Below are positions 13,193 to 29,058 of a DNA stretch of 29,058 nt, piece by piece. Numbering within the stretch: the stretch's first letter is position 1; each line of letters opens with the position of its first letter. The stretch is taken from the NCBI GenBank assembly GCA_964600535.1, contig CAZRLI010000001.1:1-29058 (forward strand), given 5' to 3'. A program made the position numbers and the translations under genes. Below the pieces are notes generated by a model that made no database searches, had not been told where the DNA came from, and saw only the letters and a list, made by a program, of their open reading frames with translations. The stretch is from an uncultured Steroidobacteraceae bacterium. GTDB taxonomy: Bacteria > Pseudomonadota > Gammaproteobacteria > Steroidobacterales > Steroidobacteraceae.

Positions 13193-14503
13193 ATGAGAAC
13201 GATTCCGGTGACCCTCGCCGCGGTCGTCGTGGCGGCCATCGGCCCTGCGGCGCACGCGGACCCCGGCGATGCCGCCATCGCCGCGCTCGTCGCGCAGGAG
13301 ACGCCGCGCGTGGTCCAGTGGCGGCGCGACTTCCACCAGCACCCGGAACTGTCGAATCACGAGGTGCGCACGGCGGGCATCGTCGCGCAACACCTGCGGC
13401 GGCTCGGCCTCGACGTTCGGACGGGCGTCGCCAAGACCGGCGTCGTCGCGGTGCTCGAGGGTGCCCGCCCCGGACCGACCGTCGCATTGCGCGCCGACAT
13501 GGACGCGTTGCCGGTCATCGAGCGGACCGACGTGCCGTTTCGCTCCACGGCCACCGCGACCTACCGTGGCGAGACGGTGGGCGTCATGCACGCCTGCGGC
13601 CACGATGCGCACACCGCGATCCTGATGGGCGTCGCGGAAATCCTCGCGGGCATGCGCGCCGACCTGCCGGGAAAGGTGATGTTCCTTTTCCAGCCTGCGG
13701 AGGAAGGGCCGCCCGAGGGCGAGGACGGCGGCGCGCCGCTGATGCTGAAGGAAGGCGTGTTTGCGAAGCTCAGGCCCGACGCCCTCTTCGGCCTGCATGT
13801 CTTCTCGACACTGCCTGCGGGCGAGATCGGCTATAGGCCCGGCGCATTCATGGCGGGTTCCGATGGTTTCCGCCTGGTCGTCGACGGACGCCAGACGCAC
13901 GGCGCGCGGCCCTGGGCGGGCATTGACCCGATCGTCGTGTCGTCGCAGATCGTGTCGGCCCTGCAGTCGGTCGTGAGCCGGCAGGTGGATCTCACGCTGA
14001 ATCCGGCGATCGTCACCGTCGGCACGATCCGCGGCGGCACGCGCGGCAACATCATCCCGGATGCGGTGGAAATGACGGGTACGATTCGCAGCTACGATCC
14101 CGCGCAGCGCAGTGACGTGCTCGCGCGCGTGGAGCGCACGGCGGTGCATATCGCGCAGGCGAGCGGCGCGACGGCGAAGTTCACTCTTTCGGGACGCCCG
14201 AACCCGGTCACCTGGAACGATCCCGCGCTGACCCGGCGCGCGGTGCCGACACTCACGCGCGTGGCCGGCGAGGGCCGGATCCGCGAGATCGGGCTGCAGA
14301 CACCGTCGGAGGATTTCTCCTATTTCGCGCGCGAGGTGCCGAGCCTCTTCTTCTTCGTCGGCGTGGCGAAACCGGGCGTGCCGGCTGCCGAGGTGGCCGA
14401 CAACCATTCACCGCTCTTCTACGTCGACGAAAGCGCGCTGCCGGTGGGCGTGCGCGCGCTCACGCAGCTCGCGGTCGATTACCTCACAGGGCGGATGCAA
14501 TAG
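13193..14503 (+). CDS. M20D-family amidohydrolase with signal peptide, 436 aa
   Basis: [47 protein letters not shown]-terminal signal ending AAHA. Confidence 0.93.
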
Positions 14504-16628
14504 GCAGGCGGCGGATGCGCTTGCCGGTCGCGGCGAAGATCGCGTTGACGACCGCCGGCGCCACGGGCGGCACGCCCGGTTCGCCGGCGCCGCCCATTGG
14601 CCCGTCGCTCGCGACGATGAGCGTGTCGACGAACGGCATCTCGTCGATCCGCAGCAGCCGGTAGTCGTCGAAGTTCGATTGCACCGCGCCGCCCCGCTCG
14701 AGGCCGATCTCGCCGTAGAGCGCCGCGGACAGGCCGAAGACCACCGCGCTCTCCATCTGCGCGATCACGCCGGCCGGGTTCACCGCCAGTCCGCAGTCGA
14801 TCGCGCAGGTCATGCGGTGCACGCGCAGCGCGCCGTCCTCGACCGACACTTCCGCCACCTGCGCGACGATGCTGCCGAAGGACTCCTGCAGCGCGATGCC
14901 GAGATGCCGGCCCCGCGCGCGCGGCTGGCCCCAACGTGCGCGCCGGGCCGCGGCGTCCAGCACCGCGAGATGGCGCGGCTTGCCGGCGAGCAGCGCGCGG
15001 CGCAGCTCGAGCGGGTCGCGGCCGCCGAGCTGCGCGAGTTCATCGAGCACGCCATTGACCACGAAGCCCGTATGCGAATGGCCCACCGAGCGCCACCACT
15101 GCACCGGCACCGGTGACGCGGCCTCGTGTACCTCGACGCGCAGGTTCGGGATCGCCCACGGCATGTCGTCGGCGCCTTCCGCGACGGTCGGATCCGGCTG
15201 GCCGGCGCGAATGAAGCCCTCGAATGGCGAGCCGCGCAGCACGGGTTGCGCGGCGATCGTGTGATGCCAGGCAACGGGCAGGCCCGACGCGTCGATCGCG
15301 GCGCGCACGCGGGAGAGGCCGAAGGGCCGGTACCAGCCACCGCGCATGTCATCCTCGCGCGTCCAGGTGACCTTGACGGGGCGACCCGCGGACTGCGCGA
15401 GCTCGACGGCCTCGAGGACGAAATCCGAGCGCGGATTGCCGCGGCGACCGAACCCGCCGCCGAGGAAAGTGGTGTGGATCCGCACCTGCCCGGGCGCCAT
15501 CCCGAGCAGCGCGGCGGCGGCGTTGCGATCGGCCGTCTGCATCTGCGTGCCGGTCCAGATCTCGCAGCCTTCCGCGGTCACGTGCGCGACGCAGTTGAGC
15601 GGCTCCATGCAGGCGTGCGCGAGATAGGGCAATTCGTACTCGACGTCGAGGCGGCGGGTGAGGTTGCCGAGCGTGGCGACGGCATCCCCGGTGTTCCTCG
15701 TGGTCGCGCCGGGCGTGCGCAACAGCGCCCGGTAGCGCGTGCGCAGCGCATCGAGCGAGAGATCCGGCTCGGGGCCCGGTGCCCAGTCGATCACCAGGGC
15801 ATCGCGCCCCTGGCGCGCCGCCCAGGTGTTGCTGGCGAGCACCGCGACGCCGGCCGAGATCTTCCTGACATCGAGCACCCCGGCGATGGCGCGGGCTGCG
15901 CGCTCGTCGACCGAGCGCACGCTGCCGCCAAACATCGGCGCACGCGCGATCACGGCATGGGCCATGTCGGGGCGAATCACGTCGATGCCGAAGAGCGCCC
16001 GGCCGGTCACCTTGGGTGGCGTGTCGAGGCGTCGCAGCGGGCGGCCGATGTAGCGGAACTTCGCGGGGTCCTTGAGCGCGACGTCCCGCGGCGGCGCGAG
16101 CCGGCCCGCGTCGACCGCGAGCTCGCCGTACCTGGCGCGCCGACCGTCGCCCACGACCACGCCGTCCGCGGCCTCGAGCCCGGCGGCCGCCACGCCCCAG
16201 CGATGCGCCGCGGCCGCGACCAGCATGGTGCGGGCGGTCGCACCCGCCTTGCGCAGCTGCTCGTAGCTCGAATTCGTGCTCATGCTGCCACCCGTGAACT
16301 GCATCGGCACGGCGGGGTGGTTGAAGGCGGCATCGACCGGCGCAAACTCGACCTTGATGCGCCGCGGGTCGACGTCGAGCTCCTCGCCGAGGATCTGCGT
16401 GAGGCCCGTATAGATGCCCTGGCCCATCTCCGACTTGGCGAGCCACACGGTCACGGTGTCGTCGGGCGCGACATGCACGAATGCATTCGGCGAGAGGCCG
16501 GGGCCGCGCCCGGTCGCCATGGCGCCCGCCGGCCCTCCGCGCCCCGCGAAGTACCAGGGCACGATGAGGCCCGTCGCGACGACTCCGCCGCCGACCAGGA
16601 ACATGCGCCGGCTGGTTGGCGCGCTCAT
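14484..16628 (-). CDS. iorB: Isoquinoline 1-oxidoreductase beta-like molybdopterin subunit (xanthine oxidase family), 714 aa
   Basis: Tat-like SRRMFL plus hydrophobic stretch, [42 protein letters not shown]. Confidence 0.9.
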
Positions 16629-17089
16629 CGCGGCGACTCGAGCAGCTCGGAGGCGCGCTTGATCGCGGCCCGGATGCGCTGGTAAGTGCCGCAACGACAG
16701 AGGTTCCCGCGCATCGCGGCGTCGATGTCGGCATCGGTGGGCCTGGGCGTGTCGGCCAGCAGTGCCGCCGCCGACATGATCTGCCCGGACTGGCAGTAGC
16801 CGCATTGCACGACATCGAGCTCGGCCCACGCGCGTTGCACGGGATGGCTGCCGTCGTCCGACAGGCCTTCGATGGTCGTGACGCGGCGACCCGCCACCGC
16901 GGCGAGCGGCGTGACGCAGGCGCGCGCCGGCGCGCCATCGAGGTGGATGGTGCAGGCCCCGCACAGCGCCTTGCCGCAGCCGTACTTCGTGCCGGTCAGG
17001 CCGGCGAGGTCGCGCAGCGCCCAGAGCAGCGGCATGGCGGGATCGGCGTCCAGCTCGTGGCGCACGCCGTTGATTTCGAGTGCAATCAT
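16625..17089 (-). CDS. iorA: [2Fe-2S]-binding small subunit (IorA/CoxS-like), 154 aa
   Basis: [15 protein letters not shown] and [25 protein letters not shown] overlap with iorB. Confidence 0.93.
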
Positions 17090-17140: not shown

Positions 17141-17935
17141 ATGCGAATCATGCAGGTCAGGGGTCTCGCGGGAGCGTGGGTGTGTGCTGCCATGGCCGTG
17201 CTGCTCGCCGGCTGCGCGGGCGGAGCTGGCCGGCCTGATGCGCCGGCGAAGGCCGGAACCCTGCTCGTGGCCGGCGCGACCGGCGGTACCGGGCGCGAGG
17301 TCGTGGCGCTCGCGCTCGAGCGGGGCTACACGGTGCGCGTCCTGGTGCGCGACGAGGCGCGGGCGCGGGCCCTGTTCGGCGATCGCGTCAGCTATGTGGT
17401 GGCAGACGTGCGCAACAGCGCGGCGCTGCCCGCCGCGGTCGCGGGCGCCGAGTACGTGATCAGCGTGCTGGGCTCCAACAGCCGGCGCGAGCCCGACAAC
17501 AAGCCGGAGCTGATCGACTTCGGCGCGGTGAAGGCCCTGGCGCAAAGCGCGCAAGCGGCCGGCGTCCGCCACTTCGTGCTGCAGTCCTCGATGGGTGTCA
17601 CCGATCCCGACCACATGCTCAACAAGATCCTCGACAACGTGCTGGTCTGGAAGCTGCGGGGCGAGGATGCGCTGCGCGCCTCCGGCGTGCCGTACACGAT
17701 CGTGCGCCCGGGCGGGTTGCAGGATGGACCGGGGGGCAGCGGCGGCTTCAAGGTGATGCAGGGCGACCCGAAGGTGCTGGGGCTGACCACGCGCGCTGAC
17801 GTTGCCTCGATCCTGGTGAACGCGCTCGGTCGCAAGGACGCACTCGGCAAGACCTTCGAAGTGGTCGCCGATCCGAATGGCACGCCACCCGACTGGAACC
17901 GCTTCTTCCGGCCATTGAAGCCCGATGCGCGCTGA
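17141..17935 (+). CDS. Atypical SDR / NAD(P)H-binding protein (Tic62/At5g02240-like) with lipoprotein signal peptide, 264 aa
   Basis: SD AAGGGGAG, lipobox LAGC (Cys25), [38 protein letters not shown]. Confidence 0.85.
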
Positions 17936-19259
17936 CACCGCGCGGCAGGCTTCCCCGCTGGTGCGCTTCCTCGGCCGCGTCGCGCGCGTCGAGCCGCGCG
18001 AGGCGCCCGCCGTGATCACGGCATTCCTGCTCTTCTTCTGCGTGCTCGGTGGCTATTTCGCCGTGCGTCCGCTGCGCGAGACCATCGCGACCATCCTCGG
18101 CGGCGATCGCGTTGCCGACGTATGGGTAGTCACCTCGATCGGTGCGGTCGCCATCGTGCCGCTCTACGGCTGGCTCGTCGGCCGCGTGCGCCGCTCGCTG
18201 CTGATGCCGTCGATCTACGGTTTCGTCGCGGTTTCGCTCGCGACCTTCGGCCTGCTGTTCCGCGCGCATCCCGAGGACATGGCGGTCGGCTCCACCTTCT
18301 ACGTGTGGATCAGCGTGCTGAACCTCATGCTCGTGTCGGTGTTCTGGAGCTTCCTGCTCGAGCTCTTCGACAGCGCCCAGGCGAAGCGGCTGTTCGGTTT
18401 CATCGCCGCGGGCGGCACCACCGGCGCGCTCGTCGGGCCGTTGCTCACCGACCTCACGGTGCAGCACATCGGCAATGCGGGCGTGCTGTTCATCGGCGCG
18501 ACGCTGTTCGTCGGCGCGATCGTCGCACAGCGCGTGCTGGTCTCGATCTGGAAGGCGGGGCGCGCCGGGCAGGCCGCGCCGGTCGATCGCGGCCTCGGCG
18601 GCAACCCGTTCGCGGGATTCGCGATCGTGCTGCGCTCGCCTTACCTGCTGATGCTCGCGCTGTTCGTCGTGCTGCTCTCGAGCGTCAACACGTTCCTCTA
18701 TTTCGAGCAGCTCAACATCGTGCGCGAGACCTTCCCGGACGTCGCGCGCCGCACGCAGGTCTTTGCGCGCATCGATTACGTGGTGCAGGCGCTGACGGTA
18801 CTGTCGCAGGTCTTCCTGACCGGCCGCATCGCGGCGACTTTCGGCGTGCGCGCGCTGCTCGTCACGGTCCCGCTGATGATGGTGGCGGGCTTCCTCGCGC
18901 TCGCAGCGATCGGCGGTTTCGCGGTGCTGGCCGGGGCGATGATCCTGCGCCGCTGGGGCGAGTACGCGTTCATCCGCCCGGGTCGCGAGATGCTGTTCAG
19001 CCGCCTCGACACCGAATCGAAGTACAAGGCGAAGAACCTGATCGACGTACCGGTCTACCGTGGCGCCGACCTGCTGGTCGCGCAATTGCAGAGCGCGCTC
19101 AAGCAGGGTGGGCTCTCGAGCGCCGGCGCCGCGCTGCTCGGCGCCGGTGCCGCGCTCGCCTGGGCAGCGGTGGGACTGTGGCTCGGACGGCGAGCCGAGG
19201 GCGGCGGCGCGCCCGCCCCGCGCCCGCAGGCGGGCGAGGGGGGTGCGGGCGGTCGCTAG
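17925..19259 (+). CDS. MFS-fold transporter related to nucleotide (ATP/ADP) translocases, COG3202-like
   Basis: About 12 hydrophobic segments. Motifs [43 protein letters not shown]. Overlaps the SDR stop. Confidence 0.8.
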
Positions 19260-20659
19260 AGCGTCGCGGCGATTGCCGCGTGCGACGCACTCTCCGGGTC
19301 CGCCGGCGCGGAGGTGCTGCCTGCACCCTCTGCACCCGGCAGCGCCGCGAGCAGTTCCTCGGCGCTCGCGTAGCGCAGGCCCGGCGCCTTCGCGAGCAGC
19401 TTGTTGACCAGGGGCTGCAGCGCCGCGTGTTCGGCCGGCAATCGCGGCACGGGCGCCGACACGTGCTCCTGCAGCACTTCGATCGCCGTTGCACCCGTGA
19501 AGGGCTTGCGGCCGCTCAGCATCTCGTGCAGCACGATGCCGAGGCTGTAGAGGTCGCTGCGCGCGTCGAGGGTCGCGCCCTGCGCCTGCTCGGGGCTCAT
19601 GTAGTAGGGTGAGCCACGCAACATCCCGGTGTGCGTCGTGGTCGTTTCGGCACACATCGGCCGGGCGAGGCCGAAGTCGATCAGCACGATCTCGTCGTTT
19701 TCGCGCAGCATCACGTTCGGCGGCTTCAGGTCCCGGTGCACGAGGCCGGCAGCGTGCACGACCGCGAGCGCGCGCGCGATCTTGCGCACGTAGTCGAGCG
19801 CCTCACCGGCCGCCATCGGGCGCTGCAGCCGTGCCTTGAGGTCGCCGCGCGGGAAATACTCCATCGCGAGGTATTCGAGGCCCTCGTGGACCCCATAGTC
19901 GTAGATATCGATGATCGACGGGTCGTGGATCGAGGACAGGACCTCGTACTCGCGCGCAAACGGCTGCCGTGCGGCGTGCTGCAGCGCCGCGTCCTCGCCG
20001 CCGGTCGGCGCGTCCGCTTCATCGACGCGCGTCACCTTGAGCGCGACCAGGGCGTCGAGCTCGAAGCTCGTCGCGAGGTAGACCACCGCGCGATCGGACT
20101 CGCCGAGGACGTCGAGGATCGCGTAACGCGGAATCAGGTTGCGCGGCAATCGCGCGCGCGCGGCCGGCGCGCCTCCGACTGCCGGCGTGCGCGACGGCGG
20201 GAGCGCTTCGGCCTTGCGTTCGCGCTCACTGAGGCGGCGGCGCTCGACCAGCCGCAGCGCGATCTTGATCGAGGTGCCGAGGCGCGCCGGCGTGAGCAGG
20301 TGTTTCGGCAGGTAGTCGCTGGCGCCGAGGCGGATCGCGCGCACCGCGGTCAGCTCGTTGCCGCCGGATGCGATCGCGATGATCGGCGGCAGCAGCGTCT
20401 GGTCGCGCAGCCGGCGCAGCCAGCCGAGGCCATCCGCCGTCGCATCGTCGACGCTCTCGCCGAAGTTCATGGCGAGCAGCAGTGCGTCCCAGTCGCGGAA
20501 CTGCACGCGCTCCCGGCGACGCTCGAACTCGCGCACGTCGATGAATTCGACTTGCGCGTCCGGCAACACCGCGCCGACGTGGGCCGTGAGCCAGGCACCG
20601 TAGCGGGCGTCGTCGTCGATGATCAGGATCCGCTGGGACATGCTGGTCACGCCGCTCAC
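19256..20659 (-). CDS. Receiver-like domain fused to a Hanks-type Ser/Thr protein kinase, cytoplasmic (alternative ATG at 20641)
   Basis: REC: IIDDD, GASDYLPK. Kinase: VALK, HRDLKPPN, DFG, GSPYYMSPE, DLYSLG. No TM segment. GTGA overlap with the upstream gene. Confidence 0.9.
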   Translation of the reverse strand: MSGVTSMSQRILIIDDDARYGAWLTAHVGAVLPDAQVEFIDVREFERRRERVQFRDWDALLLAMNFGESVDDATADGLGWLRRLRDQTLLPPIIAIASGGNELTAVRAIRLGASDYLPKHLLTPARLGTSIKIALRLVERRRLSERERKAEALPPSRTPAVGGAPAARARLPRNLIPRYAILDVLGESDRAVVYLATSFELDALVALKVTRVDEADAPTGGEDAALQHAARQPFAREYEVLSSIHDPSIIDIYDYGVHEGLEYLAMEYFPRGDLKARLQRPMAAGEALDYVRKIARALAVVHAAGLVHRDLKPPNVMLRENDEIVLIDFGLARPMCAETTTTHTGMLRGSPYYMSPEQAQGATLDARSDLYSLGIVLHEMLSGRKPFTGATAIEVLQEHVSAPVPRLPAEHAALQPLVNKLLAKAPGLRYASAEELLAALPGAEGAGSTSAPADPESASHAAIAATL

Positions 20660-22566
20660 TGCAGGTCGAAGCGGATGCGCAGCTTCGCGCGCTGCGCAAC
20701 CGGGACGCCGTTGCGTTCGACGGGCCTGAAGCGCCAGCGCGCGATCGCGTCCGAGGCGGCCTGGTCGAAGACGCCTGCGGGCGTCGCGGCGATGACGCGC
20801 ACGTCGCCGACCGTGCCCTTGGGCGACACGGTGAACTCGAGGTCCACCCAGCCAGACTGGCCGCGGGCCTGCGCGTCCGCCGGGTACTGCGGCTCGACCT
20901 TGCGCACCAGCGACAGCCGGCTGGCCGGCACCACTTCGTTCGCGCGACCCTCGAGGGCGCGCTGGGTCGCGATGTCCCGCCGCGCGTTCGTGATGTCGGT
21001 TCCGCCGGGGCCGATGGCCTCGGCCTCCGCCACCCAGCGCTCCGCGCCCTCGGGGTCGGTGCGCGCGAGCGCGCCGCGCGCTTCGGCGATCATTGCCTTG
21101 CCGAGTGCATCACGGGCGGCCAGCGTCGCGGGGGCCTGCGGGTCCGTGTCGCGCATGCGCAGGTACCAGGCGCGGGCGCTGTCCGTGGCGGGGTCGACCA
21201 GGCGGTTCTGCTGCAGTCGTTCGTTGAACTGCTGCGCGAGGGTGTCGAGGGCCGCGGCCCTGTTCTCGATGCGCGCGCCCTGCAGCGCGCGCCGCAGCTC
21301 CGCGAGGTCCGCCCGCGTGACGCCGCCTTCTTCGCTGGCGGCGATCCAGCGTTCGGCCGCGGCGAGGTCGCCGGCACCGATCGCCGTGTTCGCCGCACCC
21401 ACCAGCGCCGACCGCAGCGCGTCCTCGGCGGCTGGCAGGCCGGCGGCCTCGGGTGCGAGCGCGCGCGCGGACTCGATGTAGAAGCGCGCGTTGTCCTGCG
21501 CCGGCTCGAGCAACGCCCCCGAGCCGATGCGCGCCCGGGCGAGTGCGAGGAAGCCGCCGGCCTGCTGTTGCGCTTCCTGCTGCTGCAGTTCGCGCTTGGC
21601 GGCACCGATCAGCTCGGATCCGGTGGCGGACCCGCTCTCGAGCACGGCAATGGCGCGCTCGAGGTTGCCGTCCGCGGCGGCCTTGCGCGCGGCGGCGAGC
21701 AGTTGACGTTCACGCTCCTTGCCAACCTGGGTCGCGACGAAGGCGACGCGCGGATGATCGGGCCGCAGGTCACGGGCCATCGTCACGAGACGCGCCGCCT
21801 CATCGACCTTTTCCGAGAGCAGCGCCTTCTCGGCATCCTCGAGCAGGCGATCGATCGCCGCATCGGGGCCGGCGGCAGCGGCGCGCGCGGGCGGGGCCTG
21901 CGGCGCGGAGCGTGCACTGCCAGGCGCCGTCGCGACCGTGGATGGCGTGGCAGCCGCTGCGACCGGCCGGGCCGCCGGGACCGGGGGTGCCCGGCGAGTC
22001 GACCAAGCGATCGCCACGGCCGTGGCGATCGCAAGGGCGAGGCCACCGGCCGCGAGCGCGGCCGGCGGGCGCTTGCGGGGCGCACGCGCCGGTGCGGCGG
22101 GGAGTGCCACGGCGGGCGGCGTCGAGGTATCGCTGCGGCGGAAGGCCGATTCCACGAACAGTTTCACGCGCTGCGCGGAAACGGGCTTGTGCAGGAAGCG
22201 ATACACGCGCCCGTCGGTGATCTGCGAAGCGAGCGAGCCCTGGTCAGAGACCGTGCCCGCAACCACGAGCACGAGGTCGGGAAACTGGTTGCGGAGGCGA
22301 TCGGTGAACTGCGCGATCGGTTGATGGCAAGCGGCGCTGTCGATCAGCACCGCGCGCACCTGGCTCGCGAGCAGACGGTCGATCAGCGCGGTGTCGGTGG
22401 CGACGACCGCGACGTGATGCCCGGCGTCGACGGCGGCGCGCAGCGTGTCGACGAGTGCGGCATCCTGGGTGAGGGCCAGCATGCCCGGCGCGGGCGACGC
22501 AGGCGCGAAGCCGGAGCGATGGGCCGGCTTTTCCTCGCGGGGTCTCTGTGCAGGGCTTTCCGCCAC
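20656..22566 (-). CDS. Receiver domain - TM - helical repeats - TonB C-terminal domain protein, 636 aa
   Basis: N-terminal REC (VLIDS…YRFLHKP), Pro/Ala linker, TM (ALAAGGLALAIATAVAIAW), TPR-like helices, and TonB_C (PQYPADA…GWVDLEFTV..G.V…FDQAA..AIARWRF.P). SD GGAG. Confidence 0.87.
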   Translation of the reverse strand: MAESPAQRPREEKPAHRSGFAPASPAPGMLALTQDAALVDTLRAAVDAGHHVAVVATDTALIDRLLASQVRAVLIDSAACHQPIAQFTDRLRNQFPDLVLVVAGTVSDQGSLASQITDGRVYRFLHKPVSAQRVKLFVESAFRRSDTSTPPAVALPAAPARAPRKRPPAALAAGGLALAIATAVAIAWSTRRAPPVPAARPVAAAATPSTVATAPGSARSAPQAPPARAAAAGPDAAIDRLLEDAEKALLSEKVDEAARLVTMARDLRPDHPRVAFVATQVGKERERQLLAAARKAAADGNLERAIAVLESGSATGSELIGAAKRELQQQEAQQQAGGFLALARARIGSGALLEPAQDNARFYIESARALAPEAAGLPAAEDALRSALVGAANTAIGAGDLAAAERWIAASEEGGVTRADLAELRRALQGARIENRAAALDTLAQQFNERLQQNRLVDPATDSARAWYLRMRDTDPQAPATLAARDALGKAMIAEARGALARTDPEGAERWVAEAEAIGPGGTDITNARRDIATQRALEGRANEVVPASRLSLVRKVEPQYPADAQARGQSGWVDLEFTVSPKGTVGDVRVIAATPAGVFDQAASDAIARWRFRPVERNGVPVAQRAKLRIRFDLQ

Positions 22567-22645
22567 GGCTCGCTCCGTTCCAATAGGGCGGATTTACAGG
22601 GGTTTATGGCAATTTTCTGTGACCCTGGTCCTTCCCGGGGATTCC

Positions 22646-22673
22646 CCGACCGTCGCCCGCGGGCGACGGTCGG
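22646..22673. repeat. Perfect 28-bp palindrome CCGACCGTCGCCCG|CGGGCGACGGTCGG
   Basis: Exact reverse-complement halves with no spacer, in the divergent intergenic region 22567-22719. Confidence 0.9.
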
Positions 22674-22684
22674 ATATGCGAACC

Positions 22685-22713
22685 GTGTCACACTCGAGGT
22701 GGCCGGCTATCAT
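22685..22713 (+). promoter_or_regulatory. Sigma70-like promoter GTGTCA-17-TATCAT, predicted +1 at the A of ATG 22720
   Basis: Hexamer spacing counted from the sequence. No SD upstream of 22720 or 22726. Confidence 0.45.
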
Positions 22714-22719
22714 CGGCCG

Positions 22720-23664
22720 ATGGCCATGCGAACGCGATTCCTGCCGGCTCTCATCGCCCTGCTCGCGCTGTGCTGCCAGCCGCTGGCTGCGAACGCGGGC
22801 GTGAGCGGTGCGCAGGAGCGCGCCGCCCAGGAGTTCCTCGCCGCGATGGCCTCGGGCAGCCCGCAGGCGGTGGCCGAGGCGCTGCATCCCGACGACCTGC
22901 ATCGCCTGCGCGTGGCGATCACGGCGCGCCTGCGGGCGGACGCAGCGGTCGGCGACCACGCGGTGCGCGAGCGCCTGTTCGGCGAGGCGTCAAACCTCGG
23001 CGAAATCGAGCGCCTCACCGATGTCAGCTTCTTTGCGGCGTTCGGCAGCCGCCTGCGCTACCCGGGCCGCGTGTTCTCGAAAGTGGATGGCCTCGAAGCG
23101 GTGCGCGACGGCGACAAGCAGGTGCACGTGGTGGTCCGGGGTACCCAGCCCGAGGGTCGCGGCAAGACGCGCGTCGTGCGGCTGGTGACGCTGCTGCCGT
23201 ATGGCAAGGAATGGAAGGCGGCGGTGCCGAGCGAGATCGAGGCGCAGGTCGAGGATCTGCTCGATGGCCGCGAGGCCTCGACCGGCCTCACGCCGCGACG
23301 GGTGGCCGCGCCTGCCGGCGCCGCCGCGGCGCCCGCGGCCAACTCGCCCGGGATGCGCGCGATGCTGGTCGATGCCGCGCGCGCGCTGGTCGACGGGCAC
23401 TGCGACGACTACTACGGGAAGTACATGAGCCCGGGCTTTCGACGCGAGACCTCGGCGCAGGCGCTGGCCACGCTGGTCAGGAGCTGCGAGCGCAGCGACT
23501 CGCTGCGCGAAACGCTGATCACGGCGCTGCGCATCGTGCACGATTCGGTGCCGGTGTTCGATCGCGGCGGCAACCGCGCGAGCTACGACACCACCGGGCG
23601 CGGCCTGCCCTTCGACCACTTCGTGCTCGAGCGCGACGGCGACCGCTGGTACATCGCGGAATGA
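22720..23664 (+). CDS. Secreted hypothetical protein, probably two small alpha/beta (NTF2-like?) domains (alternative ATG at 22726)
   Basis: Signal peptide MRTRFLPALIALLALCCQPLAANA. Two segments beginning AAQEFLAAM and ARALVDG are separated by an Ala/Pro linker. Stop overlaps the GNAT start (ATGA). Confidence 0.75.
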   Translation: MAMRTRFLPALIALLALCCQPLAANAGVSGAQERAAQEFLAAMASGSPQAVAEALHPDDLHRLRVAITARLRADAAVGDHAVRERLFGEASNLGEIERLTDVSFFAAFGSRLRYPGRVFSKVDGLEAVRDGDKQVHVVVRGTQPEGRGKTRVVRLVTLLPYGKEWKAAVPSEIEAQVEDLLDGREASTGLTPRRVAAPAGAAAAPAANSPGMRAMLVDAARALVDGHCDDYYGKYMSPGFRRETSAQALATLVRSCERSDSLRETLITALRIVHDSVPVFDRGGNRASYDTTGRGLPFDHFVLERDGDRWYIAE

Positions 23665-24170
23665 GCGAACTGACGATCCGGGCCGCCGGCGCCGCCGATG
23701 CCGCGCTGCTGCTTTCGCTGATCCGCGGCCTCGCCGAGTACGAGAAGCTCGCGCACGAGATGGTCGCCACCGAAGCACAACTCGCGGCCGAGCTCGCCGC
23801 CGCGCGGCCCGTCGTGCACGCGCTGGTCGCCGAGCGCGCCGGGCGTGCCGTGGGCTTCGCGCTCTACTTCTTCAGCTTCTCGACCTTCCTCGCGCGCCAG
23901 GGCCTGTACCTCGAGGACCTCTACGTGCTGCCCGGGGAGCGCGGCGGCGGTGTCGGGCGCGCGCTGCTTGGCGAGCTCGCGCGCCGTGCGGCGCAACGGG
24001 GCTGCGGGCGCATGGAATGGTCGGTACTGGACTGGAACACGGACGCGCAGCGCTTCTACCGCGGCATCGGCGCGCGGCCGATGGACGAATGGACCGTCTG
24101 GCGCCTCGATCGCGCAGGCATCACGGCGCTAGGCTACGATCGGAAACCAGACAGGAGGAGCAAATCATGA
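23661..24170 (+). CDS. GNAT N-acetyltransferase (SSAT/diamine acetyltransferase-like), 169 aa
   Basis: LAEYEK, GFALYF..FSTF..GLYLEDLYV…RGGGVG, MEWSVLDWN..A..FY. Confidence 0.9.
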   Translation: MSELTIRAAGAADAALLLSLIRGLAEYEKLAHEMVATEAQLAAELAAARPVVHALVAERAGRAVGFALYFFSFSTFLARQGLYLEDLYVLPGERGGGVGRALLGELARRAAQRGCGRMEWSVLDWNTDAQRFYRGIGARPMDEWTVWRLDRAGITALGYDRKPDRRSKS

Positions 24171-24373: not shown

Positions 24374-26164
24374 TCAGGCGGGCGGCAGGTATTCCTGCAC
24401 GCCGACCACGAGCATGCCGGGGCCGCCGTGCACGCCGAGCGCGGGGCCGAGCGGGGTGAGATAGCCCGACTCGAGCCGCGGTATCGCGGCCCGCAAGGCC
24501 GCCAGCAGGCGCTGGCCCTCGAGCTCCGCTTCGGCGTGTCCCACCACGACGCGGTAGGTCGCCCCCGCGCGCAGCCGCCGTACGACGAAGCGCGCGAAGC
24601 GCGCCGTGAGGTCGCCGCGGCCGAAGAGGGCGCCGCCCGGCCCGATCCGGCCGTCGGGGTGGTTGGTGAGCACGGGCGAGCAGCGCAGCAGCTGCGACAG
24701 CGTGCGCACGAAGGCGGGCACGCGGCCGCCGCGCACCGCGTAGTCGAGGCCGGCGAGCAGTCCCCAGGTGCGGGTCTTCGTGCGCATCGCCGCGGTGGCC
24801 GCGGCGATGCGCGGGCCGTCGAAGCCCGCCAGCGCGCACTCCGCGGCATACATCGCCAGCAGTCCCTGCCCGAGCGAAACATTGCGGCTGTCGAGCACCT
24901 GGACCTTGCCGCCCGCGACGCGCGCGGCGGCGCCCTTCGCCGCCGCGTAGGTGCCGCTCACGCGCGCCGTCAGCGCGATCGACACGACGTGCTGGTAGTG
25001 CGAGGCGAGGAATTCGTACAGGCGGCGAAAGTCGCCGGGTGGCGGCTGCGAGGTCTGCGGGTGCACGCTGCCCGCCGCCAGCTCCTGGTAGAACTCCTGC
25101 GGCGTGAGCGACACCTTGTCGAGGTAGCTGCGCGAGCCGAAGTGCACGCGCACCGGCACGACGTGCACGGCGAGCCTCTCGAGCAGCTCCTCCGGAATAT
25201 CCGCGGCGGAGTCGGTGACGATCGCGGTGCTGGCGCGCGCGTGATGCGCGGCGAGGGCCTGGCGGTGCATGTCGTCGGCCTTGTGCGCGTCGAGCACGCC
25301 GAAGCACGCTGCCGCCTCGAACACCCGGGCGGGTTCGTTGGTGTGGACGTGGATGCGCGCCTTGCGGCGCGATCCGGCGACCACCAGGCTCGAGCCGAGC
25401 GGCGCGAGCGCCTCGCGCAGGCGCCGGTGGTCGATGCCCGCGCCGCTGACGACGCACTCCGTGCAGAAACGGTGCTCGCCCGCGCTGCCGCCGATCGCCA
25501 TGGGCCCGGCGGCTTCGTGTGGTGGCGCGCAGGGCTCGCCGACCTGCCCCGTCTGGAGGTACGCCAGCATGCCCTCGAGCAGCTCGACGAAGCCGGCCGC
25601 GCCCGCATCGACCACGTTGGCCGCGCGCAGCACGTCGAGCGTGGTGCGCGTGCGTTCGAGCGCGGCGCGCACCCGGGGCAGGCTGGCACCGAGCAGTTGC
25701 GCGAGGTCCGCCGCCCCGCCGGCCTCGCTGATGCGCCGTGCTTCCACGGCGAAGGCCTCGAGCACCGTCAGCAGCGTGCCGTCGCGCGGTTCGATGACGG
25801 CATCGCGTGCGTAGCGCGCGCCGGCTGCCGCCGCTGCCGCGAACTGCGGCGCATCGAGGGTTGCGTGGCCCTCGGCCGAGTCGGCGACGCCGAGCAGGAA
25901 CTGCGCGAGGATCGCGCCGGAATTGCCGCGCGCGCCGTCGATGGCCGCGTCCGCGATCCGTGCCAGGAGCAGGCCGGCGTGCTTGGCATCCGCCGCACCC
26001 AGGGCGCCGAGCACCGCCGACATCGTCATCGCCATGTTGGTGCCGGTATCGCCATCCGGCACCGGGGACACGTTGATCCTGTTCAGGTGGTCGGTGCGCG
26101 CGAAGAGCCGGTAGATGCCGGCGCGCAAGGCGTCGGCGAGGGCGGTGCCGTCACTCGCGCTCAA
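24374..26164 (-). CDS. DAK2 (FakA-like kinase) - DegV (FakB-like fatty-acid-binding) fusion protein, 596 aa
   Basis: LNRINVSPVPDGDTGTNM, GARGNSGAIL, DGTLLTV, VVDAGAAG, FCTE, IHVHT. Then IVTDSAAD, TSQP, SGTY, DSRNVSLGQG, GVHGGPG. TTG is the only in-frame start available. Confidence 0.9.
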   Translation of the reverse strand: MSASDGTALADALRAGIYRLFARTDHLNRINVSPVPDGDTGTNMAMTMSAVLGALGAADAKHAGLLLARIADAAIDGARGNSGAILAQFLLGVADSAEGHATLDAPQFAAAAAAGARYARDAVIEPRDGTLLTVLEAFAVEARRISEAGGAADLAQLLGASLPRVRAALERTRTTLDVLRAANVVDAGAAGFVELLEGMLAYLQTGQVGEPCAPPHEAAGPMAIGGSAGEHRFCTECVVSGAGIDHRRLREALAPLGSSLVVAGSRRKARIHVHTNEPARVFEAAACFGVLDAHKADDMHRQALAAHHARASTAIVTDSAADIPEELLERLAVHVVPVRVHFGSRSYLDKVSLTPQEFYQELAAGSVHPQTSQPPPGDFRRLYEFLASHYQHVVSIALTARVSGTYAAAKGAAARVAGGKVQVLDSRNVSLGQGLLAMYAAECALAGFDGPRIAAATAAMRTKTRTWGLLAGLDYAVRGGRVPAFVRTLSQLLRCSPVLTNHPDGRIGPGGALFGRGDLTARFARFVVRRLRAGATYRVVVGHAEAELEGQRLLAALRAAIPRLESGYLTPLGPALGVHGGPGMLVVGVQEYLPPA

Positions 26165-26837
26165 GCTGGAACCGCGTGCCCCGGAAAGCCATCACGACGC
26201 CGGTGGGCGTGATCCGCTCGACGCGCACGCCGTCGCGCGTGGCGTCGCCCTCGCGCAAGCGCTGCATGTTCACGAGCACGAAGCGGTCCGCCGGCCGGGT
26301 CGCATAGACGTGCATGTCGAGGTGCAGCTGTGGCAGCTGGTTGCCGATCGATGCCGGCAGCTGCTCGAGCGTCGGCACCATGTCGCTGCCCGGCGCGGTG
26401 GTGGCCGGGCCTGCCTGCGCGGCAACCGGCGCGTCGTGCGCCGGGGGCGCGCTCCCCTGCGGCAACGCTGCCACGTAGTCGGCAGGGTTGTCCGATTCCT
26501 CCGCGACGGCCGGCTTCCCGGCGGCCTGCCGCGGCGGCAGTACCGGCGCCTGCGCCGCCGGCGCGCGGCGGGTGTCCGGGGCGGGTTCCGAGGCCGGCGC
26601 GAGCGCCACCTTGGCGGGCGTGGCAGGCGTCGCGGCCGCATCCGCAGGTGGCGTACGCGAGCGCGTCACGAACCAGCCGAGCGCCACGATGTTGATGACC
26701 AGGAGGACGCCGAGCACCAGCGCCCAGGCCGGCAGGGCGCCACGGGGCGCGGCGCTGCGGACCTCGAGCAGGGCCGGCCCCGCCTGCCGCTGTCGCTCGC
26801 TGTCGGATTTCTTCAGCGCATCGAGTATGAAGGACAT
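26151..26837 (-). CDS. gspB: General secretion pathway protein B (ExeB/GspB)
   Basis: MSFILDALKKSDSER, one TM, Pro/Ala linker, and a C-terminal T2SSB-like domain (HVYA…RFVLVN..LREGD…I.P.GVV). Confidence 0.88.
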   Translation of the reverse strand: MSFILDALKKSDSERQRQAGPALLEVRSAAPRGALPAWALVLGVLLVINIVALGWFVTRSRTPPADAAATPATPAKVALAPASEPAPDTRRAPAAQAPVLPPRQAAGKPAVAEESDNPADYVAALPQGSAPPAHDAPVAAQAGPATTAPGSDMVPTLEQLPASIGNQLPQLHLDMHVYATRPADRFVLVNMQRLREGDATRDGVRVERITPTGVVMAFRGTRFQLERE

Positions 26838-26840
26838 CGC

Positions 26841-28511
26841 TCAGCTTCCCTGTGCGGCCACGAGGCGTGGCGTGCCCGCGGCCGGCGCGGCGGCGTCGAG
26901 CGCCAGCTGTGTCTGCGGGCCGGCGATGCCGTCGACGTCGAGGCGCCGCTGGCGCTGGAACTCCTCGACGAGCTGCACGAGCGAATCGTCATACCGGTCG
27001 CCCCGCCCGCCCGGGCTCGCGATGCCCGCGAGGCGCTCGAGATGCTGGCGCAGCTGCAGCACCTCGTCACCCGACATGCCGGGCGTCAGGGCCCTGACCG
27101 GCACGGCAACGGGCTTCCACAGCAGCACGAAATCCCCGAACCAGTAGCGCGCCAGGTCCGTGATGCGCACCGTGTGTTCGCTGCCGCCGATGTCGAGGCG
27201 TGCGTCGTCGTCGCCGAGCGCCACGAGCACCACCTGGTGCGCGCCGCCCTGGTCGTCGCCCAGCGCCAGCATGGCGGGGCGATCATAGAGGCGCAGCTGC
27301 GCATAGGAACCGCGCTGCGCGACGCATTGCAGGCCGGCCTGCGCGGCCTGCGTGCAGCCATCGCCCGCGCCGGGCACGAAGGGTGCGCCCCAGTGCGCGA
27401 GCAGGCGCGCGAACGCGGCCTCCTGCGTCGTCACTGCGGCGTTGTCCGCCAGCAGCTTCGCCAGCGAGTCGCGGGCGGGCGGCAGCGCCGCGGGTACGCC
27501 CGCGGCCGTCGCAACGCGCGCGCCGGTGGCATCCGGGGTCGACGCGCGTGCCGGGTCCGCAGCGGCCACCGCGGGCACCGGCGCCGCGGCCGGCGCACCG
27601 TGATCGAACGCGCCGGCCCGCCACAGCGCCAGGACTGCGAGTACCGCCACGGCGCCGCCGCCGAGGCCGGCCACCCACGGCAGCCAGCGCGGCGTGACGC
27701 GCCGATCGAATACTTCGCTGGCGGAGCTGCGGATGATGGCGGCAGTCACGCGGTGGCGGTCCTGCGTGTAGGCGCCGAGCAGGGCGCGGTCCGCGATCAC
27801 GTTGATGAGCCGTGGAATGCCGCCCGACTGGCGATACAGCTCCGCGAGCGCGCCGTTCGTCAGGATGTCGGAAGTCGCACCCGCCACGCGCAGGCGGTGC
27901 CTGGCATAAGCGGCGGTTTCGGCAGCGGACAGCGGATCGAGGTGGTAACGGCCGGTGATGCGCTGTGCGAGCTGGCGCAGCTCGGGGCGGGCCAGCATCT
28001 CGCGCAGCTCCGGCTGGCCGATCAGGATGATCTGCAGCAGCTTCTGCGTCGGGGTCTCGAGGTTCGTCAGGAGCCGCACCTGCTCGAGCACCGCCGGGGC
28101 AAGGTTCTGTGCCTCGTCGACCAGCAGCACGACGCGCCGCCCGTCGGCGTGCGCGCGCAGCAGGTAGTGGTTGAGTATGTCGACGAGGTCCTTGAGGCTC
28201 GCGACCGCGCGGTCCGGCAGTCCGATGCCGAGTTCCTCGCAGATCGTCAGCATGAACTCGGGTGCGGTCATGCGCGGATTGAGGATCAGCGCGATCTCGG
28301 CGTTCTTCGGGATCTGGCCGAGCAGCGACCTGACGATGGTGGTCTTGCCGGTGCCCACTTCGCCGGTGAGCTGCACGAAGCCGCCCGCTTCGCTCACGCC
28401 GTACAGGAGGTGCGCGAGCGCCTCGGCGTGCCGCTCGCTCAGGTAGAGGTAGCGCGGGTCGGGCGTGATCGAGAAGGGCTTCTCGTTGAGTCCGAAGAAC
28501 GGCAGGTACAT
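26841..28511 (-). CDS. gspA: General secretion pathway protein A (ExeA/GspA): AAA ATPase, TM and peptidoglycan-binding domain
   Basis: MY..FFGL.EKPFSITPDP, Walker A GEVGTGKT, VDEAQNL, LTNLET, GQPEL, GGIPRLIN, and C-terminal FQ…LDVDGIAGPQT. Confidence 0.93.
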   Translation of the reverse strand: MYLPFFGLNEKPFSITPDPRYLYLSERHAEALAHLLYGVSEAGGFVQLTGEVGTGKTTIVRSLLGQIPKNAEIALILNPRMTAPEFMLTICEELGIGLPDRAVASLKDLVDILNHYLLRAHADGRRVVLLVDEAQNLAPAVLEQVRLLTNLETPTQKLLQIILIGQPELREMLARPELRQLAQRITGRYHLDPLSAAETAAYARHRLRVAGATSDILTNGALAELYRQSGGIPRLINVIADRALLGAYTQDRHRVTAAIIRSSASEVFDRRVTPRWLPWVAGLGGGAVAVLAVLALWRAGAFDHGAPAAAPVPAVAAADPARASTPDATGARVATAAGVPAALPPARDSLAKLLADNAAVTTQEAAFARLLAHWGAPFVPGAGDGCTQAAQAGLQCVAQRGSYAQLRLYDRPAMLALGDDQGGAHQVVLVALGDDDARLDIGGSEHTVRITDLARYWFGDFVLLWKPVAVPVRALTPGMSGDEVLQLRQHLERLAGIASPGGRGDRYDDSLVQLVEEFQRQRRLDVDGIAGPQTQLALDAAAPAAGTPRLVAAQGS

Positions 28512-28533: not shown

Positions 28534-29058
28534 TCAAACGACCTCGAAGAGCCCCGCCGCGCCCATCCCGCCGCCGACGCACATGGTCGTAACGACGTAC
28601 TTCACGCCGCGCCGCTTGCCCTCGATCAGCGCGTGGCCGACGAGCCGCGTGCCCGAGACGCCGTAGGGATGGCCGACCGCGATCGCGCCGCCGTCGACAT
28701 TCAGGAGTTCGTCCGCAATGCCGAGCTTGTCGCGGCAGTAGATGACCTGCACCGCGAACGCCTCGTTCAGCTCCCACAGGCCGATGTCACCGACCGCAAG
28801 CCCGGCGCGCTCGAGCAGGCGCGGCACGGCGAATACCGGCCCGATGCCCATCTCGTCGGGCTCGCAACCCGCGATCGTGAAGCCGCGGAAAATGCCGAGC
28901 GGCGTGATGCCGCGCCGCTCCGCGAGCCTGGCATCCATCACGACGCAGGCCGCCGCGCCGTCGGAGAACTGGCTCGCATTGCCGGCGGCGATCACGCCGC
29001 CGGGTATCGCGTGCCTGATCTTCGACACGCCCTCGATGGTGGGGTCGGCGCGGATGCC
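28534..29058 (-). CDS. Acetyl-CoA C-acyltransferase (thiolase), 5'-truncated by the window edge
   Basis: [45 protein letters not shown]. Frame is open to position 29058. Confidence 0.93.

What the first reader, a model, noticed from the sequence alone, without database searches (positions are those of the whole stretch)
19256..22566. Candidate trans-envelope signalling system: REC-TM-repeat-TonB_C protein coupled to a pseudoREC kinase
Seen: a TonB_C protein with a cytoplasmic N-terminal receiver domain, one TM and a long helical periplasmic region, joined by a GTGA overlap to the kinase gene. The two RECs are degenerate in complementary ways. The TonB REC has Asp (VLID) and Lys (HKP) but a weak acidic pocket and no Thr/Ser. 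The kinase REC has the pocket but no Asp. No exbBD, TonB-dependent receptor or histidine kinase is nearby. Known: canonical TonB has only a short N-terminal anchor. Inference: TonB_C engages outer-membrane receptor TonB boxes or peptidoglycan and relays that state through REC-REC contact to the kinase, or phosphorylation switches a specialised TonB on and off. I do not recall this architecture being characterised.
Basis: partly seen in the sequence, partly recalled or inferred. Interest (0 to 1): 0.72.

Follow-up and report, generated by a model that had tools for sequence, protein, structure and literature searches.

The report
Split receptor kinase with TonB-type arm
A two-gene unit conserved across the soil/water family Steroidobacteraceae pairs a membrane protein (atypical receiver domain inside the cell, TonB-type docking domain in the periplasm) with a soluble Ser/Thr kinase that carries a dead receiver domain; it looks like an unstudied way of linking the outer envelope to cytoplasmic phosphorylation.

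Summary
Gene 20656-22566(-) encodes a high-confidence receiver fold, one membrane helix, a 310-residue TPR-like periplasmic domain and a TonB C-terminal domain. Gene 19256-20659(-) encodes a receiver-fold domain that lacks the phospho-acceptor Asp, fused to a catalytically complete Hanks kinase.

The pair is co-conserved. The kinase lies directly downstream (gap -7 to +63 bp) in 67 of 77 related loci with room for it. All 80 loci fetched are MAGs, labelled Steroidobacteraceae or more broadly. A sister kinase lineage lies in the same operon as a paralogous TonB-like clade.

The protein fails three of four defining features of an energy-transducing TonB: no conserved polar anchor motif, no proline-rich rod and no ExbBD nearby.

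Two new points:
- The periplasmic repeat also forms the region after the single predicted TM helix in single-chain Ser/Thr kinases, where that helix is seen.
- Paralogues of the TonB-like protein sit next to SpoT/RelA or in CheA-like/CheY/CheX operons.

My reading is a split receptor kinase or trans-envelope signalling module. Signal direction and REC-REC contact are untested.

I found no paper on this architecture. Earlier scan notes describe a single-chain pseudo-REC/kinase/TM/TonB_C form in Acidobacteriota; I could not verify that here. Novelty: new variant of a known kind.

The parts
20656..22566 (-). Gene for the REC*-TM-TPR-TonB_C protein (636 aa, P0001). The GTG start at 22566 has GGAG 6 nt upstream. 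An alternative ATG lies at 22482.
22126..22485 (-). Cytoplasmic atypical receiver domain REC* (residues 28-147). D35 and D76 are invariant; K127 is invariant in A1 and K or R in A3. A103 sits at the Thr/Ser switch position.
22000..22062 (-). Single transmembrane helix (residues 169-189). It has no conserved His or Ser motif.
20941..21870 (-). Periplasmic all-helical TPR-like repeat domain (residues 233-542) with G-x-L-x-E-P-x-x-D-N/S-A motifs.
20662..20934 (-). TonB C-terminal domain (residues 545-635), with the YP motif present.
19256..20659 (-). Gene for the pseudo-receiver Hanks Ser/Thr kinase (467 aa, P0002). An alternative ATG start lies at 20641.
20207..20632 (-). Pseudo-receiver domain of the kinase (residues 10-151). 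It has no Asp at the acceptor position, and its alpha4-beta5-alpha5 segment is the most conserved part.
19352..20125 (-). Protein kinase domain (residues 179-436). K208, HRD (D310) and DFG (D328) are invariant; the Gly-rich loop is degenerate (G-E-S-x-x-A-x-V-Y).
22567..22769 (.). Divergent intergenic region between the operon and the c4 gene. It holds a perfect 12-bp hairpin (22646-22673) and one promoter-like site on the + strand.

Best explanation
The two genes encode a split receptor kinase.

Shown:
- Subunit 1 is a bitopic inner-membrane protein. Its periplasmic part is a TPR-like repeat domain ending in a TonB C-terminal domain. Its cytoplasmic part is an atypical receiver domain (REC*) close to the membrane.
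- Subunit 2 is a soluble, catalytically complete Hanks Ser/Thr kinase whose N-terminal regulatory domain is a pseudo-receiver.
- The genes are tightly coupled and co-inherited.
- The same repeat type occurs after the single predicted TM helix in single-chain Ser/Thr kinases.

Inferred:
- The TonB_C/TPR arm docks on an envelope partner. This could be a TonB-box-bearing outer-membrane barrel, bound by strand addition as in TonB-receptor complexes, or peptidoglycan.
- Occupancy or oligomeric state passes through the single helix to REC*.
- REC* binds or releases the kinase's pseudo-receiver, probably through the conserved alpha4-beta5-alpha5 faces, and so sets kinase activity or location.
- The kinase then phosphorylates cytoplasmic targets, possibly including REC* itself. 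Hanks kinases are known to phosphorylate receiver domains.
- The protein is not an ExbBD-energised transport TonB.
For: - Architecture: REC*, TM, TPR, TonB_C; pseudo-REC plus an intact kinase.
- Co-conservation: the kinase is directly downstream in 21 of the 30 best family loci, in 16 of 16 orthologous 20-kb loci, and in 67 of 77 loci with room among 80 species representatives. TonB-like identity falls to 33-40% across these. Only the nearest flanking genes are shared by most loci.
- Second association: a sister kinase lineage lies in the same operon as members of a different TonB-like clade, directly adjacent in genus g9 and three genes away in g7.
- Rosetta-stone link: the periplasmic repeat profile has 3497 hits at E <= 1e-3. 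It finds long proteins with an N-terminal Pkinase followed by many copies of the repeat (P0136, P0138, P0142, P0161, P0246). A clear single TM helix just after the kinase domain is predicted for P0142 and P0161.
- Signalling context of paralogues: they sit next to SpoT/RelA, including in the window's own genome, or in CheA-like/CheY/CheX operons.
- Against a transport TonB: canonical short TonBs next to ExbD occur elsewhere, and none is near this locus.
- Precedent: Hanks kinases phosphorylating receiver domains is established (PMC12189002).
Against: - No physical interaction, phosphorylation or ligand was tested. AlphaFold-Multimer was not available.
- Much of the synteny lies within one bacterial family, so vertical inheritance contributes to the counts.
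- In genus g7 the syntenic TonB-like gene has no adjacent kinase. A convergent LytS-type histidine kinase plus LytTR regulator sits there instead, and REC* is equally conserved. The TonB-like protein can therefore work without an adjacent kinase.
- D76 is invariant at the phospho-acceptor position, and paralogues carry a canonical receiver. This fits input from the cytoplasm (inside-out) as well as outside-in signalling.
- No single-chain kinase-TM-repeat-TonB_C form was found here.
Confidence: 0.45

Rival explanations
1. Inside-out control. The TonB-like protein is a membrane-anchored response-regulator-like effector. The kinase phosphorylates REC* on Ser/Thr, or a histidine kinase phosphorylates D76. 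This switches the periplasmic TPR/TonB_C arm between docked and undocked states, regulating an outer-membrane receptor or a tether to the wall.
For: - Receiver domains are normally input domains, and D76 is invariant, with K127 kept as K or R.
- Class-2 paralogues add a canonical receiver in front of REC*. Class-3 paralogues sit in CheA-like/CheY/CheX operons, which supply phosphoryl donors.
- Hanks kinases are known to phosphorylate receiver domains.
Against: - Both canonical Mg-binding Asp positions and the Thr/Ser switch residue are missing in REC*.
- The same repeat lies after the single predicted TM helix in single-chain Ser/Thr kinases (P0142, P0161), the position an ectodomain would occupy and where a sensor role is the usual logic.
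- No histidine kinase lies near class-1 loci.
Confidence: 0.22
2. A specialised energy-transducing TonB. It uses one of the genome's ExbBD pairs to power particular TonB-dependent transporters, and the receiver domain and kinase only tune its activity.
For: - The TonB_C domain is strong, with the YP motif and a fold match to TonB bound to FoxA, BtuB and FhuA.
- Sister genomes encode several ExbD homologues and many TonB_C proteins.
Against: - The transmembrane helix has no conserved polar (Ser/His) motif.
- The Pro-rich rod is replaced by a TPR domain.
- No ExbB/ExbD match lies on the target contigs of the three sister genomes, and none was seen among the called genes of the 29-kb window that were scanned with Pfam. 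Short canonical TonBs next to ExbD exist elsewhere.
Confidence: 0.1
3. Envelope-anchored scaffold or landmark, analogous in logic to FimV/HubP. TonB_C binds peptidoglycan, the TPR domain and REC* recruit partners, and the kinase is one of several clients. No signal crosses the membrane.
For: - TPR and pseudo-receiver domains are typical protein-recruitment modules. FrzS is a precedent for an atypical receiver that controls localisation (PMC1974792, listed).
- Several different cytoplasmic partners occur across the paralogues.
Against: - No localisation data.
- No motility or secretion genes lie in the operon.
- GspA/GspB lie upstream, separated by other genes including divergently transcribed ones.
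Confidence: 0.13
4. Neighbours only. The two genes are co-inherited in one bacterial family but act independently.
For: - All loci come from one family-level lineage.
- The nearest flanking genes (MFS transporter, GspA/GspB) are also widely syntenic.
- Genus g7 lacks the adjacent kinase.
Against: - The junction stays at -7 to +63 bp on the same strand in 67 of 77 loci, while more distant flanks vary.
- A sister kinase lineage lies in the same operon as a different TonB-like clade.
- The repeat type is also fused to kinases elsewhere.
Confidence: 0.1

Closest known systems
TonB (E. coli / P. aeruginosa energy transducer, with ExbB-ExbD)
   Same: - The C-terminal TonB_C domain matches by sequence (E 1e-21) and by fold (TM 0.89 to the P. 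aeruginosa TonB domain bound to FoxA).
- It is a bitopic inner-membrane protein that reaches into the periplasm.
   Different: - A 120-residue cytoplasmic receiver domain replaces the short N-terminus.
- The anchor has no conserved polar motif.
- A TPR-like domain replaces the Pro-rich rod.
- There is no ExbBD linkage.
- The partner gene is a Ser/Thr kinase.
Bitopic receptor Ser/Thr kinases (PknB/StkP/PrkC type; also the Pkinase-TM-repeat proteins P0142, P0161 and P0246 found here)
   Same: - A Hanks kinase inside the cell is coupled to an extracytoplasmic repeat sensor across a single helix.
- The repeat in P0142, P0161 and P0246 is the same family as the periplasmic domain here.
   Different: - Here the sensor and the kinase are separate polypeptides, each with a receiver-fold domain at the presumed junction.
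- The sensor ends in TonB_C rather than PASTA or an FGE-sulfatase domain.
Atypical / pseudo-receiver proteins (FrzS, HupR, RitR-type regulators targeted by Hanks kinases)
   Same: - Receiver folds lacking parts of the phosphorylation site are used as interaction or regulatory modules.
- Cross-talk between Ser/Thr kinases and receiver domains is documented.
   Different: None of these is tethered by a membrane helix to a periplasmic TonB_C domain.
Fec-type cell-surface signalling (FecA-FecR-FecI)
   Same: The concept is shared: the state of an outer-membrane, TonB-box-bearing receptor is relayed across the inner membrane.
   Different: - No signalling transporter, anti-sigma factor or ECF sigma gene is nearby.
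- The relay would end in Ser/Thr phosphorylation, not sigma-factor release.
Single-chain pseudo-REC / Ser/Thr kinase / TM / TonB_C proteins of Acidobacteriota (earlier scan notes e1-2804099, e1-1234323, e1-5149597; unchecked here)
   Same: The same four building blocks occur, fused in one chain. If real, this is the fused counterpart of the pair described here.
   Different: - One polypeptide, in a different phylum.
- No TPR-like repeat is reported.
- I could not recover these proteins with the searches left to me.

Membership tests
TonB energy transducer | C-terminal TonB_C domain with the YP motif | tested here: met
   Pfam 77 bits and TIGR01352 65 bits. PDB profile and Foldseek matches.
TonB energy transducer | N-terminal signal-anchor helix with a conserved Ser/His (SHLS-type) motif that couples to ExbBD | tested here: not met
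   The helix at 169-189 has no His. The alignment consensus for the helix shows only conserved small residues and a Trp.
TonB energy transducer | Proline-rich periplasmic spacer | tested here: not met
   Residues 233-542 are modelled at high confidence as a TPR-like helical domain.
TonB energy transducer | Genetic linkage or dependence on ExbB/ExbD | tested here: not met
   No ExbB/ExbD was seen among the called genes of the window that were scanned with Pfam, and no ExbD match lies on the target contigs of the three sister genomes. ExbD lies next to short TonBs elsewhere. Functional dependence is not testable here.
Response-regulator receiver domain (TonB-like protein) | (beta-alpha)5 CheY-like fold | tested here: met
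   AF2 pLDDT above 90. Foldseek TM 0.72-0.80 to HupR, 3hv2 and NtrX. Profile E 8e-8 to 3kcn.
Response-regulator receiver domain (TonB-like protein) | Complete phosphorylation site (two pocket Asp, acceptor Asp, Thr/Ser, Lys) | tested here: not met
   The acceptor Asp D76 is invariant and the Lys position K127 is K or R. The pocket positions are T33/Q34 (with D35 one residue later) and the switch residue is A103.
Response-regulator receiver domain (kinase N-terminus) | Fold plus acceptor Asp | tested here: not met
   The fold is met (Pfam 28.5 bits against a 30.2 cut-off). The acceptor position is Ala here and is A, T, S, H or D in orthologues. The pocket is not conserved.
Hanks-type Ser/Thr protein kinase | Catalytic Lys, alphaC Glu, HRD, DFG and an SPE-type activation segment | tested here: met
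   K208, E237, H308-R309-D310, D328-F329-G330 and S355-P356 are invariant in 16 orthologues. Pkinase E 5e-40. The Gly-rich loop is degenerate.
Fec-type cell-surface signalling | Signalling TonB-dependent transducer plus FecR-like anti-sigma factor plus ECF sigma factor in the locus | tested here: not met
   None was seen among the called genes scanned in the window or in the recurring neighbour families of 20 related loci of about 20 kb.
Single-chain receptor Ser/Thr kinase | Kinase, TM and ectodomain in one polypeptide | tested here: not met
   Two genes at every class-1 locus examined that carries the kinase. No longer fused form was found. The same repeat is fused to kinases in other proteins.

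The most novel reading that the evidence does not exclude
Receiver-headed, TonB_C-tailed bitopic proteins may form a general class of trans-envelope transducers. They would connect the state of outer-membrane TonB-box proteins (or the wall) to three different cytoplasmic signalling chemistries:
- Ser/Thr phosphorylation (this pair).
- A receptor-free CheA-like/CheY/CheX phosphorelay.
- SpoT/RelA-type (p)ppGpp metabolism.

REC-REC docking would be the common connector. The single-chain kinase/TonB_C proteins noted in Acidobacteriota would be the fused version.
Probability: 0.25. Interest if true: 0.85.

Novelty: new variant of a known kind. Interest (0 to 1): 0.62.

Why it matters
TonB C-terminal domains are known almost only as the business end of an energy transducer. 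Bacterial Ser/Thr kinases are known mainly with PASTA-type or unknown sensors.

This locus uses a TonB-type docking domain as the outer arm of a kinase-linked membrane protein. Its sister loci couple the same arm to a CheA-like phosphorelay and to SpoT.

If the arm really reads outer-membrane receptors, this would be a route for sensing nutrient-receptor or envelope state that needs no sigma/anti-sigma pair. It would occur in a lineage (Steroidobacteraceae) that is abundant in soils and sediments and rich in TonB-dependent transporters.

It also offers a tractable case of receiver domains used as protein-protein connectors between a sensor and a Hanks kinase.

Tried and rejected
I took neighbourhoods from the genome search, the fetch from genomes and the search for related loci instead.
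- My first GC3-only gene caller picked the antisense ORF over the TonB-like gene. I replaced it with a codon log-odds model trained on the genome.
- Fused forms:
  - Proteins longer than 1113 aa related to P0001: none found (weak evidence).
  - Proteins longer than 818 aa related to the kinase: the 120 best matched through the kinase domain only, and none carried TonB_C.
  - TonB_C proteins of 830-930 aa with the repeat turned out to be REC-REC*-TM-repeat-TonB_C, not kinase fusions.
- The class-wide genome search with the non-TonB_C part found only 2 weak partial matches in 400 Gammaproteobacteria. Only 3 candidates per genome were scored, so this is a floor.
- Literature searches for TonB-like plus receiver domain plus kinase, for response regulator plus TonB C-terminal, and for the two Pfam names found nothing relevant.
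- I considered and rejected a functional link to the GspA/GspB pair upstream. It is separated by a fatty-acid-kinase-like gene and divergent genes, and several class-1 loci (e.g. L038, L042, L045) show no GspA/GspB among the seven genes listed upstream.
- I considered the conserved divergent gene c4 (no Pfam hit). It is on the opposite strand, in an operon with an EEP-family gene and a GNAT gene, so I left it out.
Full report
**Setting**

The window is the whole of contig C1 of a fragmentary MAG (2.48 Mb, 502 contigs, 66% complete, about 70% G+C). Names attached to homologues and to related contigs place it in Steroidobacteraceae, Gammaproteobacteria.

A codon log-odds gene model trained on the genome, together with Pfam, gives the following local map:

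| Coordinates | Strand | Content |
|---|---|---|
| 14484-16628 | - | molybdopterin oxidoreductase, large subunit |
| 16625-17089 | - | [2Fe-2S] subunit |
| 17192-17935 | + | NAD(P)-binding protein |
| 17925-19259 | + | MFS/TLC-like transporter |
| 19256-20659 | - | kinase |
| 20656-22566 | - | TonB-like gene |
| 22567-22769 | . | 200-bp divergent intergenic region |
| 22770-23661 | + | unknown gene c4 |
| to 24170 | + | GNAT |
| 24374-26164 | - | DAK2-DegV fusion |
| 26151-28511 | - | GspB and GspA |
| 28534-29058 | - | thiolase |

P0001 (636 aa):
- TonB_C at 558-635, E 1.2e-21.
- AF2 on a 54-sequence alignment gives mean pLDDT 86.7. It shows a (beta-alpha)5 domain at 28-147, a helix at 176-189 within the hydrophobic stretch 169-187, an all-helical domain at 233-542 and a TonB_C fold at 545-633.
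- Foldseek against the PDB returns three things separately: TonB C-terminal domains (6i97_D, TM 0.89), receiver domains (HupR, 3hv2, NtrX; TM 0.72-0.80) and TPR superhelices.
- A profile of the N-terminal 170 residues reaches receiver structures by sequence alone (3kcn E 8e-8, 3hv2 E 9e-6).
- That alignment places D76 at the phospho-acceptor position, A103 at the Thr/Ser switch position and K127-P128 at the conserved Lys-Pro. T33 and Q34 fall at the two pocket Asp positions.
- D35 and D76 are invariant, and K127 is invariant in A1 and K or R in A3, together with the whole beta4-alpha4-beta5-alpha5 stretch.
- The GTG at 22566 has GGAG 6 nt upstream, so I keep it as the start.

P0002 (467 aa):
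- A complete Hanks kinase (Pkinase E 5e-40). K208, E237, HRD and DFG are invariant in 16 orthologues. The Gly-rich loop is degenerate.
- In front of the kinase is a receiver fold at 10-151. Pfam Response_reg scores 28.5 bits, just under the cut-off.
- The acceptor position is Ala here and varies among orthologues. The acidic pocket is not conserved either. The segment G-N-E-L-T-A-V-R ... D-Y-L-P-K (alpha4-beta5) is nearly invariant.

The GTGA overlap is present. An ATG 18 nt downstream is the start that most orthologues support. No terminator-like site lies between or inside the two genes.

**Co-conservation**

- P0001 has at least 328 relatives at E <= 0.001; the 120 best listed are mostly full-length, 37-66% identical and 518-703 aa (one near-identical record aside).
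- In a sample of its own family it is found in 109 of 151 genomes and 32 of 40 genera. This tally includes one unpublished genome, G119; no other claim rests on it.
- A sampled class-wide search gave only two weak partial matches in 400 other Gammaproteobacteria. That count is a floor.
- The kinase is directly downstream in:
  - 21 of the 30 best loci;
  - all 16 orthologous 20-kb loci drawn from about a dozen genera;
  - 67 of 77 loci with room among the 80 best species representatives, at a gap of -7 to +63 bp.
- All of those 80 contigs are MAGs.
- Neighbours are ordinary housekeeping genes (EEP-family hydrolase, permease, DinB, M20 peptidase and others). They vary more than the pair does.

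**Not a standard TonB**

- The anchor helix has no conserved polar motif.
- The rod is a TPR domain.
- No ExbD match lies on the target contigs of the three sister genomes, and no ExbBD was seen among the window genes scanned with Pfam.
- Sister genomes hold short TonBs (open frames of about 210-300 aa) next to ExbD elsewhere, for example G020 contig 3.

**A larger family with signalling partners**

A tree of the shared periplasmic part separates three clades.

- **Class 1** is the present gene with its kinase.
  - In genus g7 the syntenic class-1 gene lacks the kinase.
  - It faces a convergent LytS-type histidine kinase plus LytTR regulator instead.
- **Class 2** carries a canonical receiver in front of REC*.
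  - It lies directly after a SpoT/RelA homologue.
  - This holds in the window's own genome too (contig C246).
- **Class 3** lies in operons with a CheA-like kinase (Hpt plus CheA-type ATPase), a CheY and a CheX.
  - In genera g7 and g9 this operon also contains a pseudo-REC kinase.
  - Those kinases form a sister lineage to the class-1 kinases (support 90/88 and 92/93; the G008 branch is long, so this needs care).

The kinase/TonB-like association therefore appears in two paralogous pairs. That is hard to explain by inherited synteny alone.

REC* keeps the T/S-x-D motif and the acceptor Asp in all three classes. The Lys is lost in some class-3 members.

**The periplasmic repeat links to kinases**

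- A profile of residues 230-545 found 3497 cluster representatives at E <= 1e-3 and 274 at E <= 1e-30 among 1.84 billion.
- Among the best are proteins of 1100-2500 aa with up to 12 copies of the repeat.
- Four of the six long proteins tested have an N-terminal Pkinase domain, as does the 836-aa P0246 tested later. P0142 and P0161 also show a clear single TM helix just after the kinase domain, followed by the repeat (motif G-x-L-x-x-P-x-x-x-N-A-x-x-x-Y/F). One ends in an FGE-sulfatase domain.
- So the sensor-like part of P0001 is the same module that lies after the kinase and its predicted TM helix in these single-chain kinases.
- I did not find a chain that joins kinase, repeat and TonB_C.

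**Interpretation**

The best-supported reading is a split receptor kinase (about 0.45):
- The TPR/TonB_C arm engages an envelope partner.
- REC* at the inner face of the membrane couples to the kinase's pseudo-receiver.
- The kinase signals onward.

The steps beyond architecture, gene coupling and the repeat-kinase link are inference.

The main rival is the reverse direction, inside-out control of the arm by phosphorylation of REC* (0.22). It is favoured by the invariant D76 and by the canonical receivers and phosphorelay partners of the paralogues. A true ExbBD-driven TonB, a passive scaffold, and mere neighbours are less likely (0.10-0.13 each).

**Known or new**

- Full-text searches found no paper on a receiver/TonB_C protein or on this gene pair.
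- NCBIfam has only domain-level models for it.
- Phosphorylation of receiver domains by Hanks kinases is established (PMC12189002).
- Earlier notes of this scan describe the class-3 operon in another Steroidobacteraceae genome (e1-4386380). I found it independently.
- They also describe single-chain pseudo-REC/kinase/TM/TonB_C proteins in Acidobacteriota (e1-2804099, e1-1234323, e1-5149597). I could not check these.

I rate the finding a new variant of a known kind (receptor Ser/Thr kinase or trans-envelope signalling built from known domains), with interest 0.62.

Noticed in passing
window 22770-24170 (+): A single 466-aa ORF joins the conserved unknown gene c4 in frame to the GNAT acetyltransferase. 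The c4 part is 79% identical to its same-genus homologue, whose alignment ends at 23661. In relatives these are two separate genes of about 303 and 169 aa. This may be a lost stop codon or a real fusion.
   Followed up: partly
window 22646-22673: A perfect 12-bp inverted repeat with a 4-nt loop lies in the divergent intergenic region upstream of the TonB-like gene. It has no T-run, so it is not a terminator. It could be an operator or a repeat element.
   Followed up: no
G000 contig C246 (L070:190-3615): The window's own genome has a SpoT/RelA homologue immediately followed by a 659-aa REC-REC*-TM-TPR-TonB_C paralogue. The same pairing occurs in genera g7 and g21 (L046, L047, L055).
   Followed up: partly
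L067 (G124:C8), L068 (G006:C17), L063, L054, L062: There are receptor-free CheA-like (Hpt plus CheA-type ATPase) / CheY / CheX operons, each with a TonB-like paralogue at one end. Some also contain a pseudo-REC Ser/Thr kinase.
   Followed up: partly
L048 (G076:C14), L050 (G102:C12): In genus g7 the syntenic class-1 TonB-like gene has no kinase. It is faced by a convergent LytS-type histidine kinase (PF06580) and a LytTR response regulator.
   Followed up: partly
proteins P0136, P0138, P0142, P0161, P0246: A large, unnamed periplasmic repeat family (G-x-L-x-x-P-x-x-x-N-A-x-x-x-Y/F; 3497 cluster representatives at E <= 1e-3) follows the kinase domain, and a single predicted TM helix where one is seen, in long Ser/Thr kinases. 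They carry up to 12 copies, and one ends in an FGE-sulfatase domain.
   Followed up: partly
window 26151-28511 (-): A GspB (T2SSB) and GspA (AAA_22 plus PG_binding_1) pair stands without other type II secretion genes in the window. It is syntenic with the locus in 13-14 of 20 related loci.
   Followed up: no
window 19256-19259: The kinase gene and the convergent MFS/TLC-like transporter gene end on overlapping stop codons, a 4-bp convergent overlap.
   Followed up: no
window 24374-26164 (-): DAK2, a FakA-like middle domain and DegV occur in one 596-aa ORF, a single-chain fatty-acid-kinase-like protein. It is conserved in 12 of 20 related loci.
   Followed up: no
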